Source of the DNA: a virus
Lineage: Duplodnaviria; Heunggongvirae; Uroviricota; Caudoviricetes
Virus record (IMG/VR): IMGVR_UViG_2534682234_000016
Location: 1-7,673 of that record
Length of the DNA: 7,673 nt
Direction: 5' to 3' (one strand)
In this document: positions 4,295 to 5,652 of the stretch, in pieces
How the letters are laid out: each line of letters starts with the position of its first letter
Position numbering within the stretch: the first letter of the stretch is position 1
Notes under the pieces: generated by a model
Seen by the model: the letters and a program-made list of their open reading frames with translations, nothing else
The model's database searches: none
What the model was told of the DNA's origin: nothing
Translations under genes and position numbers: made by a program

Positions 4295-4585
4295 GGTGTT
4301 ATTCCCGATGCTTTTTAAAGTTCGCAGAATCGTATGTGTAGAAAATTAAACAAACCCTAAACAATGAGTTGAAATCTCATATTGTTAATATTTATTAATG
4401 TATGTCAGATGCGAAGGATCGTCACTGTATTCCCGGATTAACTATGTCCGCAGCCCTGACAGGGAAACTCCTCTGCGGGAGTGTCCGGGAATAATTAATA
4501 ACGATGCACACAGGGTTTAGCGCGTACACGTATTGCATTATGCCAACGCCCCGGTGCTGACACGGAAGAAACCGGACGTGATGAT

Positions 4586-5119
4586 TTAGCGTGGAAAGAT
4601 TTGTGTAGTGTTCTGAATGCTCTCAGTAAATAGTAATGAATTATCAAAGGCATAGTAATATCTTTTATGTTCGTGGATATTTGTAACCCATCGGAAAACT
4701 CCTGCTTTAGCAAGATTTTCCCTGTATTGCTGAAATGTGATTTCTCTTGATTTCAACCTATCATAGGACGTTTCTATAAGATGCGTATTTCTTGAGAATT
4801 TAACATTCACAACCTTTTTAAGTCCTTTTATTAACACAGTGTTATCGTTTTCTAACACAATGTGAATATTATCTGTGGCTAGATAGTAAATATAATGTGA
4901 GACATTGTGACGTTTTAGTTCAGAATAAAACAATTCACAGTTTAAATCTTTTCGCACTTGATCGAATATTTCTTTAAAAATGGCAACCTGAGCCATTGGT
5001 AAAACCTTCCATGTGATACGAGGGCGCGTAGTTTGCATTATCGTTTTTATCGTTTCAATCTGGTCTGACCTCTTTGTGTTTTGTTGATGATTTATGTCAA
5101 ATATTAGGAATGTTTTCAA
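4586..5119 (-). CDS. Hypothetical protein at the position and size of lambda ORF p78 (YbcV/YdfO-like, DUF1398-type assignment from memory)
   Basis: 177 codons, same length and spacing from bor as lambda p78 (47042-47575 complement). Visibly AT-rich compared with its flanks. The first in-frame start is TTG (reverse complement of 5117-5119), directly preceded by a stop; the next ATG is 27 codons in. No clear SD for either. Confidence 0.65.
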
Positions 5120-5281
5120 TTAATAGTATTGGTTGCGTAACAAAGTGCGGTCCTGCTGGCATTCTGGAGGGAAATACAACCGACAGATGTATGTAAGGCC
5201 AACGTGCTCAAATCTTCATACAGAAAGATTTGAAGTAATATTTTAACCGCTAGATGAAGAGCAAGCGCATGGAGCGACAAA

Positions 5282-5488
5282 ATGAATAAAGAACAATCTG
5301 CTGATGATCCCTCCGTGGATCTGATTCGTGTAAAAAATATGCTTAATAGCACCATTTCTATGAGTTACCCTGATGTTGTAATTGCATGTATAGAACATAA
5401 GGTGTCTCTGGAAGCATTCAGGGCAATTGAGGCAGCGTTGGTGAAGCACGATAATAATATGAAGGATTATTCCCTGGTGGTTGACTGA
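5282..5488 (+). CDS. Small hypothetical protein at the position and size of lambda ORF p79 (YbcW-like)
   Basis: 68 aa, ATG start with GGAG-type RBS. Same length and location as lambda p79 (207 bp). No functional motif recognised. Confidence 0.55.
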
Positions 5489-5652
5489 TCACCATAACTG
5501 CTAATCATTCAAACTACTTAACCTGTGACAGAGCCAACACGCAGTCTGTCACTGTCAGGAAAGTGGTAAAACTGCAACTCAATTACTGCAATGCCCTCGT
5601 AATTAAGTGAATTTACAATATCGTCCTGTTCGGAGGGAAGAACGCGGGATGT

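What the first reader, a model, noticed from the sequence alone, without database searches (positions are those of the whole stretch)
4295..5652. AT-rich accessory cluster between the lysis genes and cos
The interval between bor and cos carries three small genes of unknown function on alternating strands. The 177-codon ORF (4586-5119) is markedly more AT-rich than the surrounding late genes and starts on a non-canonical TTG directly after a stop. This slot is a known site for lysogenic-conversion cargo in lambdoids (bor itself is one). The genes are conserved with lambda yet functionally uncharacterised as far as I know, so they are candidates for host-interaction or anti-phage functions.
Basis: partly seen in the sequence, partly recalled or inferred. 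Interest (0 to 1): 0.4.

Follow-up and report, generated by a model that had tools for sequence, protein, structure and literature searches.

The report
Lambda's unexplained ybcV–ybcW cargo genes
The stretch is the already annotated ybcV/ybcW (lambda p78/p79) pair, an optional AT-rich cargo insert between the lysis genes and cos of lambda-like prophages; both genes are real and under selection, but their function is still unknown.

Summary
The window is a deletion-bearing lambdoid prophage at icd in E. coli O157:H7. Region 4295-5652 is 98.1% identical to lambda 46753-48108. It holds ybcV (lambdap78, DUF1398, minus strand) and ybcW (lambdap79, plus strand). The third gene, ylcI (DUF3950, minus strand), lies just outside at 5653-5847.

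The low GC is real: 0.32 for ybcV against about 0.50 for the late genes.

The 177-codon TTG ORF is an artefact. The gene starts at ATG 4996 (136 aa) behind a GGAAGG ribosome site. The 41-codon "extension" is conserved non-coding DNA, frame-broken in paralogues, that holds a putative promoter and the published PdhR box (5058-5074).

Sister phages keep ylcI, a 110-nt hairpin element (4407-4518) and bor but lack 4519-5635. That segment is therefore a true presence/absence cargo insert, and ybcV and ybcW also occur separately.

In published lambda CRISPRi, knock-down of p78 left plating unchanged. p79 scored essential only through polarity on the late transcript and is listed as nonessential.

Verdict: already-known genes of unknown function, with the anatomy clarified and the function unresolved.

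The parts
4001..4294 (-). bor, the serum-resistance lipoprotein gene. It is the left neighbour of the cluster, not part of the insert.
   Evidence: Pfam Lambda_Bor E=1e-30; PGAP annotation.
4407..4518 (.). Conserved structured element of about 110 nt (long imperfect inverted repeat, core 4415-4505). It marks the module junction on the promoter-distal side of whatever minus-strand cargo is present.
   Evidence: Folds at -36.2 kcal/mol on the minus strand (z=-4.4) and -34.5 on the plus strand (z=-4.2), with 0 of 200 shuffles as stable. It is shared with Stx phages that have bor but no ybcV (window 4295-4518). It is shared with Qin-like phages that have ydfO but no bor (from 4409). It also occurs in phages with ylcI directly next to it. 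RNAalifold predicts 33 pairs, one of them compensatory. It has no U-tract, so it is not a canonical intrinsic terminator.
4519..5635 (.). The cargo insert proper (ybcV plus ybcW), absent from sister phages.
   Evidence: In L118, L112, L126 and L124, blastn homology runs over window 4407-4518 and then resumes at 5636, with about 55 nt between the two in those loci. Census of arrangements.
4548..4577 (-). Small stem-loop starting 11 nt after the ybcV stop codon.
   Evidence: The arms GTCCGGTT/AACCGGAC versus GTCCGGCT/AGCCGGAC change in a compensatory way between paralogues; read from the alignment.
4586..4996 (-). ybcV (lambdap78): a 136-aa DUF1398 / YdfO-like soluble basic protein.
4997..5119 (-). 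Non-coding 5' region of ybcV, wrongly read as 41 extra codons of the 177-aa ORF.
   Evidence: The frame is broken in paralogues while the DNA is conserved. The TTG has no ribosome binding site.
5030..5058 (-). Putative ybcV promoter: -35 TTGAAA (5053-5058), 17-nt spacer, -10 CAAACT (5030-5035), inferred start near 5023.
   Evidence: Inferred from the block conserved across all paralogues, including ycgX. The tool's stricter promoter scan did not call it.
5058..5074 (+). PdhR box ATCTGGTCTGACCTCTT in the divergent ybcV/ybcW control region.
   Evidence: Exact match, 0 expected by chance. In DLP12 the same sequence was found by SELEX, and ybcV and ybcW mRNA fell 10- and 8.9-fold in a pdhR mutant (PMC7660256). 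Homology of the ybcV module in Qin-like phages ends at 5075.
5282..5488 (+). ybcW (lambdap79): a 68-aa acidic, probably three-helix protein, in the orientation of the late operon.
   Evidence: PHROG 657 E=7.5e-48 and no Pfam match. Residues 16-64 are almost invariant across 79-100% homologues. dN/dS is 0.2-0.9. AF2 pLDDT is 71, with three helices. GGAG ribosome site.
5653..5847 (-). ylcI (YlcI/YnfO, DUF3950): a 64-aa basic protein with a sequence pattern like a ribbon-helix-helix. It is the constant neighbour of cos and lies outside the finding's coordinates.
   Evidence: Pfam PF13132 scores 71.4 bits (cutoff 25) and NCBIfam NF041551 scores 36.6 (cutoff 30). dN/dS is 0.13-0.27. It is not annotated in NC_001416 but is present there at 98%. 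The ribbon-helix-helix reading is an inference and was not tested.
6047..6058 (+). cosN. The Nu1-binding repeats of cosB follow at 6099-6111, 6154-6166 and 6200-6211.
   Evidence: Sequence read directly; repeats found.

Best explanation
Segment 4519-5635 is a moron-type cargo insert in the lysis-to-cos slot of a lambda-like prophage. It carries two independent small genes that the phage does not need for growth.

ybcV is read against the late operon. It appears to have its own promoter, placed next to a host transcription-factor site (PdhR). It has a normal ribosome site and ATG, and stem-loops at its 3' end. It makes a soluble, basic, 16-kDa protein built from two alpha-alpha-beta3 repeats (the YdfO-like fold) with no recognisable catalytic or membrane feature.

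ybcW is read with the late operon. It is therefore made late in lytic growth, and from the divergent control region in the prophage state. It encodes a small acidic helical protein.

My proposal is that both act in the host cytoplasm by binding a host macromolecule rather than by catalysis. Their output would be tied to host metabolic state through PdhR. H-NS/Nac-type silencing of AT-rich DNA is a further expectation that was not tested here.

Shown here: gene identity, the true start of ybcV, the insert boundaries, purifying selection, the fold, and dispensability by comparison with sister phages. From the literature: PdhR binding and activation, and lambda plating unaffected by p78 knock-down. 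Inferred: the promoter position, expression in the lysogen of this particular prophage, action by binding, and any effect on the host.
For: Identity: 98.1% to lambda and 100% to an O157:H7 prophage where PGAP names ybcV, ybcW and ylcI.

Cargo status: presence/absence among near-identical neighbours and sharp boundaries. ybcV occurs without ybcW. ybcW occurs without ybcV. Other lambdoids fill the slot with csp, ynfN and gnsB. GC is 0.32-0.40 against 0.50-0.54.

Real genes: dN/dS is 0.09-0.36 for ybcV, and the ybcW core is invariant.

Own control region: a 75-nt block upstream of the ATG is conserved in all paralogues down to 46% protein identity. The exact PdhR box is present, and ybcV and ybcW are PdhR-dependent in DLP12.

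Not needed for lytic growth: CRISPRi on p78 gave an efficiency of plating of 1.9. Knock-down of p79 was harmful only through polarity on the late transcript.

Against: No phenotype has ever been reported for ybcV, ydfO, ycgX or ybcW. The one published claim, oxidative-stress resistance from YdfO, is a mis-citation of YfdO.

The classic list of lambda genes expressed in lysogens (cI, rexAB, lom, bor) does not include p78 or p79.

The proposed -10 hexamer is weak (3 of 6) and the tool's scan missed it.

The more than 1000-fold induction of 'DLP12 ybcV/ybcW' in BL21(DE3) may be lambda DE3 late transcription mapped to near-identical copies.

Action by binding is only an argument from the absence of enzyme-like features.
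Confidence: 0.6

Rival explanations
1. ybcV and/or ybcW protect the lysogen from other phages (superinfection exclusion or abortive infection), as many prophage morons do.
Confidence: 0.12
2. ybcW, and perhaps ylcI, serves the lytic cycle. It could be a late-expressed inhibitor of a host protein (an anti-defence factor) or a helper acting near cos during packaging.
For: ybcW lies in the late-operon orientation inside the pR' transcript, as the polar CRISPRi effect shows. It is small and acidic (pI 4.9), as many phage inhibitor proteins are. ylcI stays next to cos and nu1 in all arrangements and is listed in capsid-forming PICIs.
Against: The paper's table lists p79 as nonessential (literature column, ref. 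17). ybcW is absent from 24 of 80 close relatives with the same ylcI-cos-nu1. ylcI keeps 93% identity next to a nu1 that is only 37% identical (L034), so it is not matched to the terminase type.
Confidence: 0.12
3. ylcI and ybcV form a two-gene module: a DNA-binding antitoxin or regulator followed by a toxin or effector.
For: In Qin-type prophages ynfO and ydfO are adjacent on the same strand, 120 nt apart, and the end of ynfO overlaps the conserved ydfO promoter block. YlcI is small and basic, with a pattern like a ribbon-helix-helix.
Against: The two genes occur apart. There are 24 loci with ylcI and no ybcV. ycgX and the Kluyvera, Klebsiella and Salmonella DUF1398 genes have no ylcI nearby. 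Here ybcW in the opposite orientation separates them by 656 nt. ybcV has its own conserved promoter.
Confidence: 0.07
4. YbcV is a structural protein (a 'head protein' or 'envelope protein'), as RefSeq, PHROG 413 and older records label it.
For: Only the labels themselves.
Against: It is encoded against the late operon. CRISPRi knock-down left plating unchanged, at 1.9. It is missing from phages with the same head genes and from all but 43 of 50,697 phage records. It has no signal peptide or membrane segment. It also occurs as single chromosomal genes such as ycgX next to bluR.
Confidence: 0.02

Closest known systems
Lambda lambdap78 / E. coli DLP12 YbcV, and its paralogues YdfO (Qin, PDB 2HH8) and YcgX
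   Different: Nothing of substance. The only difference is the mis-called 177-aa start, which this window shares with the RefSeq lambda record.
Lambda lambdap79 / DLP12 YbcW
   Same: 100% protein identity to lambda and the same position and orientation.
   Different: None.
bor and lom of lambda (classic morons expressed in lysogens)
   Same: Optional cargo with lower GC than its surroundings. ybcV, like bor, is read against the late operon. The slot is next to bor.
   Different: bor and lom are exported envelope proteins with known phenotypes. YbcV and YbcW have no export signal and no phenotype. Expression in lambda lysogens is not documented.
Qin-type cargo in the same slot (cspB/F/I, ynfN, gnsB)
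   Same: They occupy the same interval between the lysis genes and cos, and are shuffled with ybcV and ybcW in different combinations.
   Different: They are unrelated proteins (cold-shock and membrane-lipid modifiers) and are all read in the late direction.

Membership tests
DUF1398 / YdfO-like (Pfam PF07166) | Sequence match above Pfam's gathering score across the whole domain | tested here: met
   156.6 bits against a cutoff of 22; profile positions 1-119 of 119.
DUF1398 / YdfO-like (Pfam PF07166) | The YdfO fold: two alpha-alpha-beta3 repeats | tested here: met
YbcW family (PHROG 657) | Full-length match to the family profile | tested here: met
   E=7.5e-48, positions 1-68 of 68. No Pfam or NCBIfam model exists.
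YlcI/YnfO (NCBIfam NF041551, Pfam DUF3950) | Score above the curated cutoffs | tested here: met
   36.6 against 30; 71.4 against 25.
Ribbon-helix-helix DNA-binding proteins (for YlcI) | Match to a ribbon-helix-helix profile or solved structure | tested here: inconclusive
   No ribbon-helix-helix family in Pfam even at E up to 10. No PDB relative by sequence. Only the strand-helix-helix sequence pattern suggests it.
Moron (phage accessory cassette) | Present in some phages and absent at the same position in close relatives | tested here: met
   24 of 80 loci have ylcI-hairpin-bor without 4519-5635.
Moron (phage accessory cassette) | Base composition unlike the flanking phage genes | tested here: met
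   GC 0.32 (ybcV) and 0.40 (ybcW) against 0.50-0.54.
Moron (phage accessory cassette) | Own promoter and terminator | tested here: inconclusive
   A conserved upstream block with a TTGAAA-17-CAAACT candidate and the PdhR box, and stem-loops downstream. There is no U-tract terminator and no start-site data.
Moron (phage accessory cassette) | Expressed from the repressed prophage | not testable with these tools
   Only indirect evidence: RT-qPCR of the DLP12 copies.
Known anti-phage defence systems (PADLOC-DB v2) | Match to any defence-protein model | tested here: not met
   Best E-values were 0.017 and 0.07, with no credible hit.
Type II toxin-antitoxin pair (ylcI-ybcV) | Obligate co-occurrence and tight operon linkage | tested here: not met
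   The genes occur separately. Here they are 656 nt apart with an opposing gene between them.
Lambda head / virion proteins | Encoded in the late operon and kept in all phages that share the head module | tested here: not met
   Opposite strand; absent from sister phages; CRISPRi efficiency of plating 1.9.

The most novel reading that the evidence does not exclude
YbcV, a fold with no solved relative other than its paralogue YdfO, would be a prophage effector switched on by the host's pyruvate sensor PdhR. It would rewire host metabolism or block a competing phage. YbcW would be a late-made acidic inhibitor of a host defence protein. The ylcI-to-hairpin interval would then be a defined hotspot where lambdoid phages swap such effectors.
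Probability: 0.12. Interest if true: 0.55.

Novelty: already known. Interest (0 to 1): 0.22.

Why it matters
Lambda is the best-studied phage, yet p78, p79 and the unannotated ylcI ORF remain without a function. About half of complete E. coli genomes carry ybcV-like DNA, and over a third carry ybcW.

The practical gains here are the corrected ybcV start, the removal of two misleading labels ("head protein", "envelope protein"), the exposure of a mis-cited phenotype, and exact insert boundaries. Together these make a clean deletion experiment easy to design.

None of this is a new kind of system.

Tried and rejected
- Both homologous-protein searches were swamped by noisy copies of the 3.5-kb nanopore lambda control amplicon and gave no diversity.
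- The exhaustive phmmer search was also largely filled with fragments. It yielded about a dozen true distant DUF1398 proteins, which were used for the AF2 alignment.
- Foldseek against BFVD found nothing below E 1e-3. The afdb50 library was not available.
- Rfam found nothing in the interval.
- A second TGGT-N3-ACC-like site at 4997-5007 was rejected: 2.7 such matches are expected by chance, and it is not conserved in paralogues.
- Leader-peptide and in-frame-extension readings of 4997-5119 were rejected because of stops and frameshifts in paralogues.
- A neighbour survey of distant DUF1398 genes found no recurring partner other than a 74-aa divergent ORF in Kluyvera, which was not pursued.
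- The Liu et al. 2013 lambda ribosome-profiling paper is not held.

Full report
**What the window is.** The 7673-base window is 100% identical to E. coli O157:H7 strain F3113 chromosome 2271699-2279371. There it is a lambdoid prophage integrated beside icd.

The gene order is:
- int (1-1143, minus strand) and xis (1133-1369, minus strand);
- two gene fragments left by an internal deletion;
- Q (1732-2421), holin, endolysin R (3035-3511), Rz/Rz1 (3508-3969);
- bor (4001-4294, minus strand);
- the region in question;
- cosN (6047-6058), the Nu1-binding repeats of cosB, nu1 (6236-6781) and the start of A.

**Checking the observation.** Region 4295-5652 is 98.1% identical to lambda 46753-48108, where RefSeq annotates lambdap78 and lambdap79.
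- The low GC is real. ybcV has GC 0.321 and GC3 0.292, and ybcW has GC 0.396. The lysis and terminase genes have 0.50-0.54.
- "Three genes on alternating strands" holds only if ylcI (5653-5847, minus strand) is counted. That gene starts one base after the finding's end coordinate.

**The TTG start is an artefact.** Five lines of evidence agree.
- The TTG at 5119 follows a TAA directly and has no Shine-Dalgarno sequence. ATG 4996 has GGAAGG 8 nt upstream.
- Pfam DUF1398, PHROG 413 and the solved paralogue YdfO begin aligning at residues 49, 37 and 40 of the 177-aa ORF.
- PGAP and the curated CPT lambda records call a 136-aa protein.
- I aligned the 300 nt upstream of ybcV-type genes from lambda, Tritos, Qin-like prophages, Citrobacter and the chromosomal ycgX. 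The last 75 nt before the ATG are conserved as DNA in all of them, but the reading frame is interrupted by stop codons and 1-nt indels. The block is therefore regulatory, not coding.
- The block contains TTGAAA, a 17-nt spacer and CAAACT (my inference for the promoter). Just upstream lies the exact 17-mer ATCTGGTCTGACCTCTT (5058-5074). Anzai et al. identified that sequence as a PdhR site in DLP12, and ybcV and ybcW mRNA fell 10- and 8.9-fold in a pdhR mutant (PMC7660256).

**Are the genes real?**
- ybcV shows dN/dS of 0.09-0.36 against homologues of 31-91% identity.
- ylcI shows 0.13-0.27.
- ybcW shows 0.2-0.9 overall. Its substitutions are confined to the first 15 residues, and residues 16-64 are almost invariant across all known variants.

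**What the proteins are.**
- YbcW has no Pfam, NCBIfam or PDB relative. It models as three helices at moderate confidence, with uninformative fold matches.
- YlcI is DUF3950 / YlcI-YnfO. It has a basic N-terminus and a strand-helix-helix sequence pattern, which I could not test further.
- None of the three has a hydrophobic segment; Bor does. The pI values are 9.2, 4.9 and 10.5.
- PADLOC returned only noise.

**Anatomy of the slot.** Comparison with other phages defines separable cassettes.
- Stx phages share only window 4295-4518: the bor upstream region plus a structured element. The terminase genes follow directly.
- Qin-like phages share 4409-5075: the same element, ybcV, its promoter and the PdhR box. 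Homology ends one base after the box.
- mEp460-type phages share 5173-5634, ybcW alone, next to csp, ynfN and gnsB.
- Among 80 viral contigs with a YlcI at least 95% identical, about 41 have ylcI-ybcW-ybcV-bor-Rz. 24 have ylcI then bor with neither ybcV nor ybcW. 10 have ylcI-ybcW-gnsB-ynfN-csp.
- In the loci that lack both genes, homology to the window runs over 4407-4518 and resumes at 5636. So 4519-5635 is a clean insert relative to sister phages.
- The element at 4407-4518 folds far better than shuffled sequence on either strand (z about -4.3). It always sits at the promoter-distal end of whatever minus-strand genes are present, about 70 nt after the last stop codon. Covariation support is thin: one compensatory pair out of 33. 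It has no U-tract.

**Distribution.**
- DUF1398 of this type occurs in only 43 of 50,697 phage records, all lambda-like coliphages.
- ybcV-like DNA occurs in 2920 of 5426 complete E. coli genomes.
- ybcW occurs in 40 phage records and 1987 genomes.
- More distant DUF1398 genes (31-53% identity) are single genes in Citrobacter, Klebsiella, Kluyvera, Pseudocitrobacter and Salmonella diarizonae. They often sit near integrases or phage remnants and have no constant partner.

**What the literature adds.**
- In a lambda-wide CRISPRi screen, knock-down of p78 left plating unchanged (1.9). p79 scored essential only because the block is polar on the late transcript. That confirms ybcW lies inside the pR' transcription unit (PMC10695390).
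- ybcW and ylcI form a convergent overlapping transcript pair in K-12 (PMC12288877).
- ybcV and ybcW appear in several transcriptome lists and ybcV in one transposon-fitness list; none reports a defined phenotype.
- The statement that YdfO over-production protects against oxidative stress (PMC4077768) cites Wang et al. 2010. That paper names YfdO of CPS-53 and never mentions YdfO. It is a name mix-up.
- The standard list of lambda genes expressed in lysogens does not include p78 or p79 (PMC7067206).

**Interpretation.** The best-supported reading is that 4519-5635 is moron-type cargo carrying two independent small cytoplasmic proteins.
- ybcV is read against the late operon from its own host-regulated promoter.
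- ybcW is read with the late operon and also from the divergent control region.
- Both are dispensable for phage growth and are kept by selection.
- I propose that they act by binding host components, because nothing in sequence or fold suggests catalysis, export or virion assembly. That last step is inference only.
- Rivals are a defence function, a lytic-cycle helper or anti-defence function for ybcW, a ylcI-ybcV pair, and a structural role. Each is scored in its own section. The structural labels in RefSeq and PHROGs are contradicted by strand, dispensability and distribution.

**Verdict.** The feature is real but already annotated and partly characterised structurally, and no new kind of system is involved. 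What is new here is bookkeeping: the corrected start, the regulatory nature of the "extension", the insert boundaries and junction element, and the removal of a false phenotype and false labels.

Noticed in passing
window 4407-4518: A conserved structured element of about 110 nt (z about -4.3 on both strands). It sits at the junction of the bor, ybcV and ylcI cassettes in every arrangement examined. It is neither a canonical terminator nor an Rfam family.
   Followed up: partly
window 5653-5847 (lambda about 48112-48303, complement): ylcI is a conserved ORF under purifying selection (dN/dS 0.13-0.27). It is present in lambda at 98% identity but is not annotated in the RefSeq lambda record NC_001416.
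   Followed up: partly
window 1370-1735: The prophage has lost its whole early region. int-xis is joined to Q through fragments of a DUF4222 gene and a YlcG gene. Seven other complete genomes carry most of the same junction at about 98% identity; other O157 genomes match only from 1641 onward.
   Followed up: partly
window 2437-2516 (+): A weak, sub-threshold Rfam match to the Salmonella sRNA isrJ (30.4 bits against a gathering score of 37, E 0.015). It lies between Q and the holin, where lambdoid phages have pR' and its short leader RNA.
   Followed up: no
window 5917-5949 and 5994-6012: An inverted repeat (ATCAATTAATACG / CGTCATAATTGAT) and an AT-rich palindrome lie between ylcI and cosN. 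Either could be an operator for YlcI or part of the ylcI promoter.
   Followed up: no
L007-L028, L035-L038 (genome contigs); hit H17: Lambda DNA, often the 3.5-kb nanopore control amplicon, sits in assemblies labelled as unrelated organisms: Kitasatospora, Brevibacillus and Arcanobacterium 'plasmids', Flavobacterium, and a 'Campylobacter phage CJLB-4'. A plant protein record (Dovyalis caffra) is YbcW. This is database contamination.
   Followed up: partly
literature (PMC4077768 citing PMC3105296): The only published phenotype for a DUF1398 protein (YdfO and oxidative stress) is a mis-citation of YfdO from prophage CPS-53.
   Followed up: yes
L048, L060, L064 (Kluyvera and related), about 250 nt upstream of the DUF1398 gene: A conserved 74-aa ORF (MLEGYFDLD...AVQAALEISKASV...) is divergently placed next to distant DUF1398 genes. 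In L060 the pair lies beside an integrase at icd. It was not identified.
   Followed up: no
window 4586-4996; records NC_001416, NC_019711 and others: The RefSeq and PHROG 413 label 'head protein' and the older label 'putative envelope protein' for p78 have no support in sequence, strand, distribution or the CRISPRi data.
   Followed up: yes
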